Below are positions 42,389 through 49,380 of a DNA stretch of 64,000 bases, in pieces. Within the stretch, counting starts at the first letter, position 1, and every line of letters begins with the position of its first letter. Source of the DNA: an uncultured Chthoniobacter sp. GTDB lineage: Bacteria; Verrucomicrobiota; Verrucomicrobiia; Chthoniobacterales; Terrimicrobiaceae. The DNA is taken from contig CAZRIL010000001.1 in NCBI GenBank assembly GCA_964600115.1, positions 42,810-106,809 of the forward strand, in the 5' to 3' direction. The notes beneath the pieces are model-generated. The model worked only from the letters and a program-made list of their open reading frames with translations. It did not search any database and had not been told where the DNA came from. The translations under genes and the position numbers were made by a program.

Positions 42389-45300
42389 ATGCTATCTACA
42401 AGAGGCTTCTGGTCTGCGACCTGCGGAGGAATCCGGATGGTTCACAGGCGGCGGGGGATGGCGCTTGTCATTGTCCTGGCATCCTTGGTTTTGCTGTCGA
42501 TCCTGGTTGTCAGCATCCTGACGTCGGCCCGGCAGGAAGTGACTTCCTCCAATTCCTACGGGGCTGGCAGCGATGCCAAACTGCTGGCCGACCTTCCCTT
42601 AAATCTCGTTACCGCACAGATTGCGAAGGCGACCTCGAACCCCGACCAGGCGTGGATTTCCCAACCCGGGCTCCTGCGCACATTCTCGCCGGATGGCCAG
42701 CAGAAGGCCTTCAAGCTGTATTCCTCTTACAAAATGGAGGAGTCCGGAACCTATGATCCTGGCAGTGCGGCGGCACTCTCGGCCGACGTTCCCGACAAGT
42801 GGTTTGAAAAGCCGGACGAGTTCGTGGATTTGAACCGGCCCATCCAGTTCGGAAACCGCAAGATCTACCCGATCGCGGACCCGAATGCTTACGATGCGTC
42901 CAAGCCCTCTGACTCGCTCGTGCAGGGGTTTTCCTACGATGTGCCGGCTGCCATCAACCCGCCTGCAGGGAACGCCACAACCAACCTGCTTCCGATGCCG
43001 GTGCGGTGGATTTACGTGACGGCGGACGGCGAGTTCGTCGGTGTGGACGACGCCAGACGCCGGGAGGCGGTTGCCCGGGTGGCCTTCTGGACCGACGACG
43101 AAAGTTGCAAGGTCAACCTCAACACGGCTTGCGGCGGAGTTTTCTACGACACGCCCTGCACGAACACCTTGGAAGACCACATGCTGGGCCGCACCCAGCC
43201 GATCGCGCAGGAGTACCAGCGGTGGCCCGGGCATCCGGCCACGACCAGCCTCGCACCCGTGCTCAAGCCCTTGCGCGATATCGCCGATCCGGTCGCGCGC
43301 TCCCGGATTGCGGCCGGGCTCACACCGAGAATCGCCTGGGGGGGATCTTCGGGAGGAACAAAATACGCCTGGCTCACGCGCGAGCTTGGCTCGACGGATA
43401 TGGACCGCCTTTACGCCACGCCGGACGAGCTCTCATTCGGCAAAGGCCTCGATGCCGCCGGCCTGCGGGTCTCGAACACCGTGAACGGCATTGATCTGGA
43501 GAGCGGCGGCCAGAAGCTCGATGAGCTCCGCTTTTTCCTGACCACACAAAGCCGTTCGCCCGAACTGACCTTGTTCAATCGGCCGCGCATCAGCCTCTGG
43601 CCGTTCAACGAGGAGATGGTGCAGACCACTGTGGACGGACGCCTCACTCCCGAAGACCGGCTCATCCGCTTCGCGTCGGAACTTGGCGGCGTGAAGGCCG
43701 ACGGAACGCTCGATTACACGAAGCGCAAGCGGTTCTACTTCCAGCGCAAGAGCGCGTGGGATCCGGCGGCAGACTGGCGGGATATCCCGTCCAACCGCGC
43801 GATTTTCCGCTACCTCCAGGACATGACCGCGCGCTCGCTGCCCTCGGCAAAATCCGACCGCGCCGGAACTGAGACCCTCCGGTCCAAATACGGTCAGGCC
43901 AACCGGGACTCCATTCTCGCCTGCATGTGGGACTATTTGAGAAGCGGGGTGAACACGGTCAACCAGGCCTATGTGCCGGTCGGGTTCCTGCCCTATTCAT
44001 TTCCTCAGGGATACGACACCACAATCTCGGGGTTCAATGACGTGGCGCCCCTCGTCATTTCCGACCTCGGGACAAAAGGCATGGGCCGCCATCCCGTGCT
44101 CACCGAGGTGATTTTCCAGTTTGTCAACATGGGGGATGATTTTGAAAAGGATGCCTCCGGCACGGCGATCGACCAGCGCGATAACAACAACCCCGCCAAC
44201 CTCACGCCCGATGGGATGCCGGACTATGTCATCCGCAGGGTCCGCATGGTTGTCCTGTTGAATTTTCAGATGCCTGTAACCAGCCTGTATGGCAGCCTGC
44301 CGCGGCTTCAGGTGAAGATAACCGGCTCCACACCGTTCAACTTTGTGACGGATAATGCCTCGCTCTCCCCGGTTCCCAGCCCTCTCATGAACCCCGGACT
44401 ATCCCAGCCGATCAATGTCCGGAATGTGGCCGGCGGTATCCCGTCATGGACGACCACGCTGGCGCCTGCAGGCATCGGGTTTCCCGCCCCGGCGTCGGAC
44501 GGAGCTTTTCGCAACACCAACTACGTCGGCTCGTTTTTTAACGGCAGGAGCTCCTACGATACCCGGGGGGGAATTTTGGGGCCCGGCTTCGGAATGTATG
44601 CCGTGATCGAGAACAAGATGAAATCGAGCAACAGTTCCACCGACCCGGAAAACGTCCACCGCCTCAAGGTTCTTTCCAACCGGGCCTCAACGCTGGAGGC
44701 CGCCGACCTGGCTTGGCGGAATTCATCCGCCTCATCGTGGGCGGCGCGCGAGGACGTCTATTACCCCTTCGTCAGCGACGTGATCGAATTTCGCCTTCCG
44801 CAGAAGGGCCGGACATTCACTCCTCCCAGCCTTCTGCCAAATCCGCTTCCGTCTCCCAATCTGGCAGACCCGGTGAACTCCTATACCACGGGCATGGTCG
44901 GCGGCACGATCACCCCCGCCGGGAAGGATTACTTCGAAGCGTTCCTCTCCGGAGGCACTCTCGATGTGGCGGTTTATCCGGGCCTGCAGGATTCGGCCAC
45001 AGCCCTCTCTCCCATCGGTTCGAATTGGCAGGCTCAAACCGGCACGAATTATTTGATGAAGACCACGATCAACGTGGGCAGTGCCGTCATCCCGCTCCCG
45101 CGGCCGGGGCCTGACCTGGTCAATGCTTCGAGGGGAACCAGCATCCCGAACCCTCCGAGCCCACCCACATTTTTGGCGATGGGCAACTATTACGAGCGGA
45201 CGAAGCTGGTCTACGTCGACAACCTGCTCCAAGTCCCATCCAAGATCACAACGAGCGCGACCCCGGTCGTCACGACGCAGATGGACGTCTTCCGCTCCTA

Positions 45301-48712: not shown

Positions 48713-49380
48713 AGGCCTCCCGAACGCCGGAATCCTGCGGATTTTCACTCGTCGAGCTGCTTGTTGTCATCGCGATCATCGCCATTTTGCTTGCTGTCGG
48801 AGCGTCGGCGCTCTCCGGGGGCGGCAACAGCCTCAGCCTGACCACGACGGTCGCCAGCGTGCAGGGAATTCTGGATGAGGCGCGTCAGACCGCCGTTTCA
48901 AAAAACAAATATGTCCAGGTCCGCTTTTTGGGGATCCCCGGCGCGGATCGCTACAAGGCCATCAGCCTGTTCGTCGGCGATTCCCCGTTTTACGGCACGG
49001 CCGCGGACTATGACACCTGGGTGTCTCAAGGCCTCCTCCGCCAGCAGGGGCGGACCAGTTTTCTCCCTCAGACCATCGCGATTCCTAAAGGCGCGCAGAC
49101 ATCGAAGCTGCTGACGGACCTCGCAGCAGACACAGATTTCTCACGCACGGGAACGAACAAGGTCTCGGGGGTCAGCTACGAATGGGTGGCATTCTATTTC
49201 CGTCCGAACGGCATCACGGATTACCAGATGCTCAAGGGAAGCCCGTATCCGGGAACGAATGCGTTTTTCTCGCTTGTGGTCGAAACTGAATTTGATCAGA
49301 CCGCCCCGAATCTCCCGAAAAACTTCGCGACGCTCACGCTCTCCCCGGCCACGGGAAGGCCGGTCGTTCTCCGGCCCTGA
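48709..49380 (+). CDS. Verru_Chthon cassette protein D-like, canonical pseudopilin N-terminus
   Basis: MKASRTPESCG|FSLVELLVVIAIIAILLAVGA. ATGA overlap with the stop of gene C. 223 aa. Confidence 0.8.
   Translation: MKASRTPESCGFSLVELLVVIAIIAILLAVGASALSGGGNSLSLTTTVASVQGILDEARQTAVSKNKYVQVRFLGIPGADRYKAISLFVGDSPFYGTAADYDTWVSQGLLRQQGRTSFLPQTIAIPKGAQTSKLLTDLAADTDFSRTGTNKVSGVSYEWVAFYFRPNGITDYQMLKGSPYPGTNAFFSLVVETEFDQTAPNLPKNFATLTLSPATGRPVVLRP

What the first reader, a model, noticed from the sequence alone, without database searches (positions are those of the whole stretch)
42389..49380. Uncharacterised four-gene pilin-like cassette (Verru_Chthon A-D type) embedded in a glycan-utilisation island
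Four co-directional genes. A is 1464 aa. Its N-terminal helix RRGMALVIVLASLVLLSILVV lacks Glu5, as in GspK/PilX-type minor pseudopilins, and the following ~1400 aa show no motif I can place. B is 154 aa (G|FTLVEVLL). C is about 378 aa (AFTILELLVAM). D is 223 aa with a textbook pseudopilin N-terminus (G|FSLVELLVVIAIIAILL). Sizes, order and N-termini match my recollection of the TIGRFAM Verru_Chthon cassette proteins A (TIGR02600), B (TIGR02598), C (TIGR02599) and D (TIGR02596), for which I know of no experimental function. The cassette sits directly downstream of an MFS sugar importer and is surrounded by CAZymes. It carries the same palindromic site as the CAZyme promoters, and it is followed by a convergent pilin-like plus CBM-like pair. 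No assembly ATPase, platform protein, secretin or prepilin peptidase is in the window. Inference: a minor-pilin-type tip complex (analogous to GspH-I-J-K or FimU-PilVWX-PilY1) whose giant subunit A could act as a glycan-binding or substrate-capture module on a pseudopilus assembled by machinery encoded elsewhere.
Basis: partly seen in the sequence, partly recalled or inferred. Interest (0 to 1): 0.8.

Follow-up and report, generated by a model that had tools for sequence, protein, structure and literature searches.

The report
Sugar-regulated giant pseudopilin tip cassette
Four adjacent genes in a verrucomicrobial sugar-degradation island encode pilin-like proteins of a catalogued but unstudied family, and most likely form the tip of a pilus-like filament that is switched on together with a sugar importer.

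Summary
ORFs A-D at 42389-49380 score above the curated cut-offs of all four NCBIfam/TIGRFAM "Verru_Chthon cassette" models. B, C and D carry canonical prepilin signals with Glu5. A has a GspK-type N-terminus (RRG|MALVIVL) without Glu5. Profile-profile comparison links A's N-terminus to GspK (probability 95%, E 1.8e-8). Weaker N-terminal hits link C to GspJ, D to GspH/FimU and B to GspI. Beyond the N-terminal helices nothing matches solved structures. Confident AlphaFold models of a full-length homologue and of A's middle part find no significant fold neighbour, so a glycan-binding module is not shown.

The glycan link is real but indirect:
- the window is a CAZyme island with no filament machinery;
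- a palindrome, GTGAA-NN-TTCAC, marks six promoters, including the one ahead of the MFS gene that precedes A;
- a 72%-identical orthologue keeps the cassette next to the same MFS and GH94 genes, and carries a one-mismatch site 84 nt upstream of A;
- across 80 related loci LacI regulators are enriched next to the cassette (p 0.0017), and none encodes machinery.

The family is large, multi-copy per genome and, among named hits, verrucomicrobial. No searched paper names it. Verdict: a genuine family member, best read as a detachable, sugar-regulated GspHIJK-like tip complex.

The parts
40586..40597 (.). Palindrome GTGAACATTCAC (operator-like) in the divergent promoter region between the BNR_4 gene and the MFS gene. 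It is the probable control site of an MFS-A-B-C-D operon.
   Evidence: Exact match. The motif occurs 8 times with at most 1 mismatch against 1.48 expected. A one-mismatch copy lies 84 nt upstream of A in the orthologous locus L082.
40753..42276 (+). MFS sugar-type importer, first gene of the co-directional block.
   Evidence: Pfam MFS_1 and MFS_2. A 76%-identical orthologue lies directly downstream of ABCD in L082. The scan listed no terminator-like site between the MFS stop and the start of A.
42437..46783 (+). Cassette protein A. It is a giant GspK-like subunit without Glu5. The longest ORF starts at 42389. The likely start is Met17 at 42437, which gives the leader MVHRRRG|MALVIVL.
   Evidence: TIGR02600, 764 bits. 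The database copy P0001 starts at this Met. hhalign against GspK gives probability 95.4%. The N-terminal part (about aa 20-600) and the C-terminal part (about aa 1100-1464) are conserved and the middle is variable. A model of a homologue has pLDDT 83.
46990..47454 (+). Cassette protein B, a small GspI-like pilin. The longest ORF starts at 46780. The likely start is Met71, which is followed by G|FTLVEVLL.
   Evidence: TIGR02598, 59.6 bits against a cut-off of 51.4. The motif is conserved in 53 homologues.
47576..48712 (+). Cassette protein C, a GspJ-like pilin of about 378 aa. The longest ORF starts at 47444. The likely start is Met45, MRPA|FTILELLVAM.
   Evidence: TIGR02599, 270.3 bits against a cut-off of 256.5. 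hhalign against E. coli GspJ gives probability 95.3% over 47 N-terminal columns.
48709..49380 (+). Cassette protein D, a GspH/FimU-like pilin of 223 aa, with G|FSLVELLVVIAIIAILL.
   Evidence: TIGR02596, 99.3 bits against a cut-off of 70. N_methyl, 28.3 bits. hhalign against GspH gives probability 92.5% over 65 columns. The profile hits FimU (4ipu) at E 0.03 beyond the helix.
49388..49981 (-). Secreted 196-aa protein of unknown family, convergent with the cassette. It is the second gene of the pilin-like pair.
   Evidence: Sec-type signal peptide visible. No Pfam or NCBIfam hit.
50022..50927 (-). GspG/ComGC-like pilin (G|AFTLVELLVVIAIIAIL). It is a candidate filament subunit co-regulated with the cassette.
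   Evidence: N_methyl, 24.2 bits. Its N-terminus hits GspG at E 6.9e-7. The palindrome at 51011 lies 84 nt upstream of its ORF start.
51011..51022 (.). Second exact palindrome, GTGAATGTTCAC, between the pilin-like gene (minus strand) and the URO-D-like gene (plus strand).
53939..53950 (.). Exact palindrome GTGAAGATTCAC, 26 nt upstream of the PATR/PEP-CTERM gene.
53976..55967 (+). PATR (autotransporter-type beta-strand repeat) protein with a PEP-CTERM anchor. Proteins of this kind recur next to cassettes in other genomes.
   Evidence: Pfam PATR and PEP-CTERM. TIGR02601 and TIGR02595. This protein type was found in 17 of 80 related loci, with weak positional enrichment, p 0.049.
16381..17454 (-). 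LacI-family regulator, candidate binder of the palindrome. A one-mismatch site at 17522-17533 lies 68 nt upstream of its own start.
   Evidence: Pfam LacI and Peripla_BP_3. Site. LacI genes are enriched next to cassettes elsewhere.

Best explanation
The four genes are a true copy of the Verru_Chthon cassette. They encode a complete set of minor-pseudopilin-like proteins: D resembles GspH, B GspI, C GspJ and A GspK.

Shown:
- All four pass their family models.
- B, C and D have prepilin signals with Glu5. A has the GspK-type signal without Glu5.
- The genes sit co-directionally behind an MFS importer whose promoter carries a palindrome shared by other promoters of the island.
- No filament machinery is nearby, here or in 80 related loci.

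Inferred mechanism:
1. A sugar-responsive repressor, probably LacI-type, releases the palindrome when the island's substrate is present.
2. MFS-A-B-C-D, a GspG-like pilin and a PEP-CTERM surface protein are then made together with the CAZymes.
3. A prepilin peptidase encoded elsewhere cleaves the four proteins.
4. [quoted passage not shown] A caps the complex because it lacks Glu5.
5. A shared type IV filament machine (T2SS-like or T4P-like, with a PilQ-type secretin) builds a filament underneath it.
6. This places A's roughly 1300-residue ectodomain at the tip.
7. The beta-rich middle third of A differs between paralogues but is kept between orthologues. It gives each cassette its own specificity, most likely binding the polysaccharide or particle that the island degrades, or else handling the island's exported proteins.
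For: Family membership.

Prepilin motifs: conserved in 53 B, 55 C and 36 D homologues.

A is GspK-like:
- The NCBIfam GspK model hits aa 22-92.
- hhalign of the A profile against a GspK profile gives probability 95.4%, E 1.8e-8 over 81 columns, through the whole first helix to the W-A-x-P turn.
- Collinear weak matches follow: the DDETCKVNINTA motif, the VEPY...GKINLN motif and the C-terminal TTKSNTFTVH strand match GspK's (I/F)NLN motifs and its SxYF strand.
- GspK chains 3ci0_K and 6utu_C rank 4th and 8th of 350,542 chains in Foldseek, although not significantly.
- The model shows a 59-residue N-terminal helix followed by strands, and ends in three long strands.

Other subunits: C against GspJ and D against GspH or FimU.

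Gene order: the order varies, and DBCA, which equals H-I-J-K, is one of the orders seen.

Shared machine encoded elsewhere:
- There were 0 hits to GspC/D/E/F/L/M/O in 1,203 ORFs of 81 sources.
- The cassette is multi-copy: at least 5 copies each in the complete genome CP170506.1 and in MAG bin.034.
- Myxococcus xanthus sets a precedent, with three minor-pilin clusters serving one machine (PMC7541494).
- A PilQ-type secretin is conserved in Verrucomicrobia (PMC4960237).

Glycan link:
- The palindrome regulon.
- MFS linkage kept after rearrangement.
- An ABC sugar transporter and LacI lie directly before B-C-A-D in L084.
- LacI is enriched at gene ranks 1-2 next to the cassette: odds ratio 4.5, p 0.0017.

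Specificity module: among five paralogues of one genome, identity is 0.14-0.27 in the middle against 0.4-0.63 at the ends. Orthologues keep 60-76% identity in that region.
Against: - All similarity to Gsp proteins stops about 50-80 residues in. Every equivalog cut-off is missed by a wide margin.
- Pfam T2SSK domains are not detected in A.
- PDB sequence searches with A and with profiles of A, B and C find nothing beyond pilin helices.
- Foldseek matches to GspK are not significant, at E 0.49 and 1.3.
- No complex was modelled, and B, C and D were not folded.
- The filament machinery of the source genome was never seen, and the organism itself was not identified.
- A's middle region has no lectin-, CBM- or adhesin-like neighbour: best E 0.03, TM below 0.15.
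- Verrucomicrobial genomes are rich in CAZymes. Sulfatase, MFS and esterase genes show no positional enrichment within 10 kb.
- D was found in only about half of the loci with good flanks.
Confidence: 0.55

Rival explanations
1. Cargo-specific secretion tip. The cassette re-tools a T2SS pseudopilus so that its GspK-like cap recognises and pushes out the island's own exported proteins (secreted CAZymes, the CBM9 giant, PATR/PEP-CTERM proteins). It does not bind glycan.
For: The best named relatives are T2SS minor pseudopilins rather than T4P ones. GspK is proposed to contact T2SS substrates (PMC7541494). PATR/PEP-CTERM genes are weakly enriched next to cassettes, p 0.049, and one shares the palindrome here. 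A T2SS was proposed to export alginases in another verrucomicrobium (PMC13274419).
Against: In this subfamily the tightest linkage is to inner-membrane importers and to GH94 phosphorylases, not to exported enzymes. That GH94 enzymes are typically cytoplasmic is background knowledge and was not tested here. The PATR enrichment is marginal. No T2SS is known to use interchangeable tip sets.
Confidence: 0.2
2. Glycan uptake by retraction. The tip complex binds a polysaccharide chain, and a retractile filament reels it through the secretin into the periplasm, as competence pili do with DNA. This feeds the co-expressed importer.
For: The cassette is coupled in an operon to MFS or ABC importers. Pili-like fibres of Planctomycetes bind dextran, which then appears inside the cell (PMC5394234). 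A pseudopilin is among 17 genes over-expressed on alginate in a verrucomicrobium (PMC13274419).
Against: No retraction ATPase or secretin was seen. No glycan-binding fold was detected in A. A cap of about 150 kDa may be too bulky to pass a secretin; this is an inference.
Confidence: 0.12
3. Membrane-anchored periplasmic complex without a filament. The pilin-type helices only anchor A-D in the inner membrane, where the large ectodomain scaffolds or gates periplasmic oligosaccharide handling next to the importer.
For: No machinery lies in any neighbourhood. The cassette is tightly linked to importers. A is far larger than any known pilin.
Against: Glu5 is invariant in B, C and D, the -1 residue is conserved as Gly or Ala, and A lacks Glu5 in the GspK manner. 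This is the signature of proteins that stack into a filament, not of simple anchors.
Confidence: 0.08
4. General adhesion or motility pili unrelated to glycan use. The CAZyme neighbourhood merely reflects how CAZyme-dense these genomes are.
For: Sulfatase, MFS, SASA-esterase and deacetylase genes are not positionally enriched near cassettes within 10 kb. Many loci have unrelated neighbours.
Against: LacI is enriched directly beside the cassette. MFS and GH94 synteny is conserved despite rearrangement. The palindrome is shared with CAZyme promoters, and a copy precedes the orthologous cassette.
Confidence: 0.05

Closest known systems
Verru_Chthon cassette proteins A-D (NCBIfam/TIGRFAM TIGR02600, TIGR02598, TIGR02599, TIGR02596)
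   Same: All four window proteins score above the curated cut-offs. The genes are adjacent and co-directional, and the closest named homologues are all Verrucomicrobiota.
   Different: Nothing differs at the family level. This copy belongs to a long-A subfamily (1400-1500 aa against about 1200-1300 aa) and has the less common gene order A-B-C-D. The family has a name but no described function. No paper in the searchable library mentions it.
T2SS minor pseudopilin tip complex GspH-GspI-GspJ-GspK (for example PDB 3CI0 and 6UTU)
   Same: There are four small-to-large pilin-like proteins. One of them (A, like GspK) lacks Glu5 and has the R-G|(V/M)-A-L-(L/V)-I-V-L signal. N-terminal profile homology gives A to K 95%, C to J 95% and D to H 92%. 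GspK-like (I/F)NLN motifs occur in the same order. The gene order D-B-C-A is seen in some loci.
   Different: A is four to five times longer than GspK (1448 against 327 aa), and C is about twice the length of GspJ. No Gsp equivalog cut-off and no Pfam T2SSK domain is met. The cassette is never next to gspD/E/F. It is multi-copy per genome and lies next to LacI regulators and sugar importers. D is often missing.
[quoted passage not shown]
   Same: Several paralogous tip or priming sets are encoded away from a single machine. One subunit lacks Glu5. A very large variable protein sits at the extreme tip and is thought to set specificity (PMC7541494).
   Different: Here the large tip protein is itself a pilin-like subunit, with a class III signal, rather than a Sec-exported PilY1. 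No PilX_N or PilY1 propeller domain was found. The N-terminal profile hits favour Gsp over Pil models.
PulG-like or DUF1559-type pseudopilin expansions in glycan loci of PVC bacteria (for example Verruconatronum alginivorum)
   Same: Pilin-like genes are embedded in polysaccharide-utilisation clusters of Verrucomicrobiota. They are multi-copy (67 paralogues of the PulG-like gene in that genome), and a pseudopilin is among the 17 genes over-expressed on alginate (PMC13274419). The window also has one GspG-like pilin in the same putative regulon.
   Different: Those are single major-pilin-like genes, not a four-gene H/I/J/K-like set with a giant cap.

Membership tests
Verru_Chthon cassette (TIGR02600/02598/02599/02596) | Protein A scores above the TIGR02600 cut-off | tested here: met
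   764 bits against 332.3, aligned over model positions 1-1296 of 1296.
Verru_Chthon cassette (TIGR02600/02598/02599/02596) | Proteins B, C and D score above their cut-offs | tested here: met
   B 59.6 against 51.4; C 270.3 against 256.5; D 99.3 against 70. The margins for B and C are narrow.
Verru_Chthon cassette (TIGR02600/02598/02599/02596) | The four genes are adjacent on one strand | tested here: met
   42389-49380, all on the plus strand, with overlapping or closely spaced ORFs.
Verru_Chthon cassette (TIGR02600/02598/02599/02596) | Host belongs to Verrucomicrobiota | tested here: inconclusive
   The source record was not identified. All named homologues and all 80 genome loci are Verrucomicrobiota.
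Type IV pilin-like proteins (class III signal; TIGR02532 / Pfam N_methyl) | Short basic leader, Gly or Ala at -1, Phe at +1, Glu at +5, then a hydrophobic helix | tested here: met
   B, C and D have the motif. It is conserved across 53, 55 and 36 homologues. D is above the Pfam and TIGR02532 cut-offs. C is above the TIGR02532 cut-off only. B is just below the Pfam cut-off. A has the variant without Glu5.
Type IV pilin-like proteins (class III signal; TIGR02532 / Pfam N_methyl) | Cleavage and N-methylation by a prepilin peptidase, and incorporation into a filament | not testable with these tools
   No peptidase gene is in the window or in related loci. This needs biochemistry.
Type IV pilin-like proteins (class III signal; TIGR02532 / Pfam N_methyl) | Pilin fold: long N-terminal helix packed on an antiparallel sheet | tested here: inconclusive
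   The model of the A homologue has a 59-residue N-terminal helix followed by strands, but coordinates could not be inspected. B, C and D were not modelled.
T2SS minor pseudopilins GspH/I/J/K (NCBIfam equivalogs) | Score above the equivalog cut-off | tested here: not met
   A against GspK 27.2 (cut-off 130); C against GspJ 21.9 (64.85); B against GspI 17.8 (44.35); D against GspH 25.9 (80).
T2SS minor pseudopilins GspH/I/J/K (NCBIfam equivalogs) | GspK hallmark: a prepilin-type N-terminus lacking Glu5 | tested here: met
   A reads RRG|MALVIVL and E. coli GspK reads QRG|VALLIVL. hhalign probability 95.4%.
T2SS minor pseudopilins GspH/I/J/K (NCBIfam equivalogs) | GspK alpha-domain (Pfam T2SSK PF03934 / PF21687) | tested here: not met
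   No Pfam hit at E up to 0.1. Only short, non-significant, collinear motif matches were found.
T2SS minor pseudopilins GspH/I/J/K (NCBIfam equivalogs) | Encoded within a gsp operon together with gspD/E/F | tested here: not met
   0 hits to GspC/D/E/F/L/M/O in the window and in 80 loci.
T2SS minor pseudopilins GspH/I/J/K (NCBIfam equivalogs) | Structural similarity to solved GspK or XcpX | tested here: inconclusive
   3ci0_K ranks 4th at E 0.49 and 6utu_C ranks 8th at E 1.3, with TM about 0.25 on the target.
T4aP tip set FimU-PilVWX-PilY1 | PilX_N domain, or the PilY1 C-terminal beta-propeller | tested here: not met
   No such Pfam hit in A-D. No propeller appears among the Foldseek neighbours of either model.
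Carbohydrate-binding module or lectin in subunit A | A recognisable CBM or lectin domain or fold | tested here: not met
   No Pfam domain in A or in any of the 120 listed homologues. The model of aa 555-1175 (pLDDT 80, pTM 0.86) has no significant PDB neighbour. CBM29 appears only at E 1.6 or worse.

The most novel reading that the evidence does not exclude
Each glycan-utilisation island of these Verrucomicrobiota supplies its own exchangeable tip complex for one shared retractile type IV filament. The giant GspK-like cap grabs the island's polysaccharide. Retraction hands the chain through the secretin to the periplasm and on to the co-transcribed importer. This would be a glycan-uptake pilus analogous to DNA-uptake pili, and a functional counterpart of SusC/D in a phylum that, to my recollection and untested here, largely lacks them.
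Probability: 0.12. Interest if true: 0.9.

Novelty: new variant of a known kind. Interest (0 to 1): 0.55.

Why it matters
The family is large: 4,337 representatives at 50% identity. It is multi-copy per genome and has been named in databases without any described function. No paper in the searchable library mentions it.

Reading it as a detachable, sugar-regulated set of GspH/I/J/K-like proteins with a 1,200-1,500-residue cap gives a concrete and testable idea of how Verrucomicrobiota couple type IV filaments to polysaccharide acquisition. These bacteria are major degraders of complex glycans in soil, water and the gut.

It would also extend two ideas in type IV filament biology. One is interchangeable tip complexes serving a single machine, so far shown for Myxococcus xanthus. 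The other is that the Glu5-less cap subunit can carry a very large, specificity-determining ectodomain.

If the cap binds glycans or cargo, these cassettes would mark the substrate specificity of loci whose CAZymes alone are hard to interpret.

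Tried and rejected
- PDB sequence searches with A, with C, and with profiles of A, B and C found nothing beyond pilin N-terminal helices.
- Foldseek with the full-length homologue model and with the model of the window's middle region found no match at E 0.001 or better. The PilY1-propeller, CBM, lectin and adhesin readings of A therefore stay unsupported. The leukocidin-type hits (E 0.03, TM below 0.15) were dismissed as generic beta-sheet similarity.
- Three literature searches for Verru_Chthon and the TIGR accessions returned zero papers. The PEP-CTERM paper (PMC1569441), in which the neighbouring accessions TIGR02595 and TIGR02602 appear, does not mention the cassette.
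- The source organism could not be identified. The exact copy P0001 is not on record in the contig index and its cluster carries no names.
- I looked for a palindrome directly upstream of A. Only a weak 12-nt inverted repeat lies at the MFS stop. The island-wide site is upstream of the MFS gene instead.
- I looked for an intrinsic terminator between the MFS gene and A. None was listed.
- Positional enrichment of sulfatase, MFS, SASA-esterase and deacetylase families near cassettes was not significant. The palindrome is absent from the more distant locus L084.
- hhalign of A sub-regions against GspK gave only short, non-significant motif matches.

Full report
**1. The observation**

The region 42389-49380 holds four co-directional ORFs of 1464, 224, 422 and 227 codons.

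- A: MVHRRRG|MALVIVLASLVLLSILVV, with no Glu at +5.
- B: G|FTLVEVLL, 90 residues into the longest ORF.
- C: MRPA|FTILELLVAM, from Met45, giving 378 aa.
- D: G|FSLVELLVVIAIIAILL, from Met5, giving 223 aa.

Against NCBIfam all four exceed the curated cut-offs of the four "Verru_Chthon cassette" models:

| Protein | Model | Bits | Cut-off |
|---|---|---|---|
| A | TIGR02600 | 764 | 332.3 |
| B | TIGR02598 | 59.6 | 51.4 |
| C | TIGR02599 | 270.3 | 256.5 |
| D | TIGR02596 | 99.3 | 70 |

Pfam finds only the N_methyl motif in B, C and D, and nothing in A. The recollection-based assignment is therefore correct and far beyond chance.

**2. The surroundings**

Pfam scans of about 40 ORFs show a carbohydrate island containing:
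- glycoside hydrolases: GH42, two GH94, GH10, GH28, a GH39-like protein with an F5/8-C domain, a rhamnosidase and a BNR_4 protein;
- an alginate lyase, two deacetylases, esterases and a 1167-aa protein with CBM9;
- an OprB porin and MFS transporters;
- a LacI regulator and an IclR regulator;
- a PATR/PEP-CTERM protein.

An MFS gene (40753-42276) lies directly upstream of A. The scan listed no terminator-like site between the MFS stop and A.

Convergent with the cassette are two genes. One encodes a signal-peptide-bearing 196-aa protein with no family hit. The other encodes a pilin-like protein whose N-terminus resembles GspG or ComGC.

No secretin, ATPase, platform protein or prepilin peptidase is present. 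E. coli GspC/D/E/F/L/M/O found nothing among the window's ORFs.

**3. The palindrome**

GTGAANNTTCAC occurs 8 times with at most one mismatch, against 1.48 expected. None of 100 shuffles reached 8. The promoter-proximal copies are:

| Position | Location |
|---|---|
| 7188 | before GH42 |
| 17522 | between LacI and a deacetylase gene |
| 36731 | before GH94 |
| 40586 | before the MFS gene |
| 51011 | between the GspG-like pilin gene and a URO-D-like gene |
| 53939 | before the PATR/PEP-CTERM gene |

The flanking bases extend the consensus to C-GTGAA-NN-TTCAC-G.

It precedes the MFS gene, which suggests an MFS-A-B-C-D operon. If the site is a real operator, the regulon would contain a full G/H/I/J/K-like set of pilin-type proteins together with CAZymes and an importer.

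**4. The family elsewhere**

Size and names:
- A has at least 1,410 homologous 90% clusters in the word-indexed search, which scores at most 8,000 candidates.
- An exhaustive profile search found 4,337 representatives at 50% identity, of which 2,011 have E of 1e-30 or better.
- All source names refer to Verrucomicrobiota, and several are already labelled "Verru_Chthon cassette protein A". None carries a Pfam domain.

A scan of one genome per species found at least 575 relatives. The best 80 loci are all verrucomicrobial. The cassette is multi-copy: at least 5 copies each in the complete genome CP170506.1 and in a Methylacidiphilales MAG, and 3 in several other genomes.

Gene order varies: B-C-A, B-C-A-D, B-C-D-A, D-B-C-A and, as in this window, A-B-C-D. 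Among 51 loci with good flanks I found ABCD in 16, ABC in 14, ACD or AC in 10, and A alone in 8. These are lower bounds, because the ORF calling was crude. B-C-A looks like the core, and D looks facultative.

None of the 1,203 neighbouring ORFs resembles GspC/D/E/F/L/M/O.

**5. Neighbours elsewhere**

Recurrent neighbour families in the 80 loci:

| Family | Loci out of 80 |
|---|---|
| LacI regulators | 22 |
| PATR/PEP-CTERM proteins | 17 |
| Sulfatases | 7 |
| MFS transporters | 7 |
| SASA esterases | 6 |
| Deacetylase/CBM proteins | 4 |

Within the 10-kb flanks only two families are concentrated right beside the cassette:
- LacI accounts for 13 of 264 genes at ranks 1-2 against 6 of 526 at rank 4 or more (Fisher p 0.0017).
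- PATR/PEP-CTERM accounts for 9 of 264 against 7 of 526 (p 0.049), which is weak.

Two lookups of closer relatives are more telling:
- The 72%-identical orthologue lies in LacI-GH94-(791 aa)-GH94-...-A-B-C-D-MFS-GntR. Its MFS is 76% identical to the window's. The importer has therefore stayed attached to the cassette while switching sides. A one-mismatch palindrome lies 84 nt upstream of that A gene.
- The 49%-identical relative lies behind an ABC sugar transporter and LacI, and ahead of BNR_4 and sulfatase genes.

**6. What the proteins are**

B, C and D keep Phe+1 and Glu+5 almost invariantly across 53, 55 and 36 homologues, with Gly or Ala at -1. This is the signature of subunits that stack into type IV filaments.

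A aligns with a GspK family profile at probability 95.4%, E 1.8e-8. The alignment runs over 81 columns, from the R-G|x-A-L-(L/V)-I-V-L signal through the whole first helix to the W-A-x-P turn.

Alternative alignments are individually non-significant but collinear:
- A's invariant DDE(T/S)CK(V/I)N(I/L)NTA matches GspK's (I/F)NLN motifs.
- VEPYAISEPFSTAGKINLN matches LxPYVCVLPxxxLxINxN.
- The C-terminal TTKSNTFTVH strand matches GspK's SxYF strand.

Other subunit comparisons:
- C against E. coli GspJ gives 95.3% over 47 columns.
- D against GspH gives 92.5% over 65 columns, including the first strand.
- The D profile touches FimU (4ipu) beyond the helix at E 0.03.
- B against GspI is weak, at 54.6%.

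None of the Gsp equivalog cut-offs is approached. These proteins work like Gsp minor pseudopilins at their N-termini, but they are not members of those families.

**7. Structure**

A full-length homologue (P0074, 1161 aa), predicted with a 79-sequence alignment, gave a confident model with pLDDT 83.2 and pTM 0.86. It has a 59-residue N-terminal helix, then strands, a mixed alpha/beta region, a beta-rich middle, and a C-terminal part that ends in three long strands.

Foldseek against the PDB found nothing at E 0.001 or better. GspK chains 3ci0_K and 6utu_C rank 4th and 8th, at E 0.49 and 1.3.

The conservation pattern of A is as follows:
- Residues about 20-600 and about 1100-1464 are shared by the whole family. 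Residues about 600-1100 align only within the subfamily.
- Among five paralogues of one genome, identity is 0.14-0.27 in the middle and 0.4-0.63 at the ends.
- Orthologues of the window protein keep 60-76% identity in the middle region.

The window's own middle part (aa 555-1175) also folds confidently, with pLDDT 80.2 and pTM 0.86, and is beta-rich. It has no significant neighbour: the best hit is E 0.03, with TM below 0.15.

The middle region therefore behaves like a paralogue-specific module of unknown fold. Nothing identifies it as a glycan binder.

**8. Mechanism**

The evidence fits a detachable priming or tip complex. B, C and A assemble through their N-terminal helices, with D as a linker to the filament body. 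The Glu5-less A sits on top, as proposed for GspK and PilX (PMC7541494).

A machine encoded elsewhere would extend a filament beneath the complex. Two published observations make this plausible:
- A PilQ-type secretin is the most abundant outer-membrane protein of Akkermansia and is conserved in other Verrucomicrobia (PMC4960237).
- M. xanthus runs three minor-pilin/PilY1 clusters on one machine.

Expression would follow the island's sugar-responsive regulator. The job of the tip remains inferred, and there are three candidates:
- Binding the substrate or particle.
- Reeling the polymer in. The importer coupling supports this, as does dextran binding to planctomycete fibres (PMC5394234).
- Selecting the island's exported proteins for secretion.

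A verrucomicrobial proteome in which a pseudopilin is among the 17 genes over-expressed on alginate (PMC13274419) shows that pilin-like genes in glycan loci of this phylum are expressed in a substrate-dependent way. That protein belongs to a different pilin family.

**9. Novelty and verdict**

The cassette is a catalogued family, and this copy is an ordinary member of it. I found no prior description of the following reading in the searched literature: a GspH/I/J/K-like set with a giant GspK homologue, unlinked from any machine, multi-copy, flanked by LacI regulators and tied to sugar importers.

I rate it a new variant of a known kind (minor-pilin tip complexes) and of moderate to high interest. 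The central functional claim, glycan capture by A, remains untested.

Noticed in passing
window 7188-7199, 17522-17533, 36731-36742, 40586-40597, 51011-51022, 53939-53950: An island-wide palindrome, C-GTGAA-NN-TTCAC-G, lies just upstream of the GH42, LacI/deacetylase, GH94, MFS(-ABCD), GspG-like pilin/URO-D-like and PATR/PEP-CTERM genes. There are 8 sites against 1.48 expected. It is probably the operator of one sugar-responsive regulator.
   Followed up: partly
window 49388-50927 (minus strand): A GspG/ComGC-like pilin (its C-terminus ends in ...VYFDGHNETQIV) is followed by a secreted 196-aa protein without any family hit. The pair is convergent with the cassette and sits behind a palindrome. 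It could supply the filament body for the cassette's tip.
   Followed up: partly
window 11291-13666; L082 3890-6265: A 791-aa signal-peptide-bearing protein with no Pfam domain has a 39%-identical homologue of the same length. In the orthologous cassette locus that homologue sits between the two GH94 genes. It may be an unrecognised enzyme of the same pathway.
   Followed up: partly
window 53976-55967, and loci such as L016 13869-17216, L036 13865-16093, L038 6466-9615: PATR (autotransporter-type repeat) proteins with a PEP-CTERM anchor recur directly beside cassettes (17 of 80 loci). The TIGRFAM accessions of PEP-CTERM (02595), cassette proteins D, B, C and A (02596-02600) and the repeat (02601) are consecutive. 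This hints that they were defined from the same genome neighbourhoods.
   Followed up: partly
protein P0232: A 3,115-aa representative matches the A profile in three stretches, the best over its residues 1461-3115. It is either a tandem fusion of two A-type proteins or a mis-called gene.
   Followed up: no
L071 (B-C-A-B-C-A), L044 and L061 (A-A): Some genomes carry tandemly duplicated cassettes, or two adjacent A-type ORFs. This suggests expansion of the family by local duplication, or frameshifted A genes.
   Followed up: no
window 46784-46989: If B starts at Met71, just before its prepilin motif, a gap of about 207 nt separates A from B, although the longest B ORF overlaps the A stop codon. 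The orthologue in L082 has a 76-nt gap.
   Followed up: no
window 51055-52089: A URO-D / MtaA-like (methyltransferase-type) protein sits behind a palindrome inside the carbohydrate island. This is an unexpected family for such a locus.
   Followed up: no
window 1248-2585 and 61941-63884: An OprB-type carbohydrate-selective porin lies at the left end of the window and a squalene-hopene cyclase at the right end. The porin could be the outer-membrane entry route for the island's oligosaccharides.
   Followed up: no
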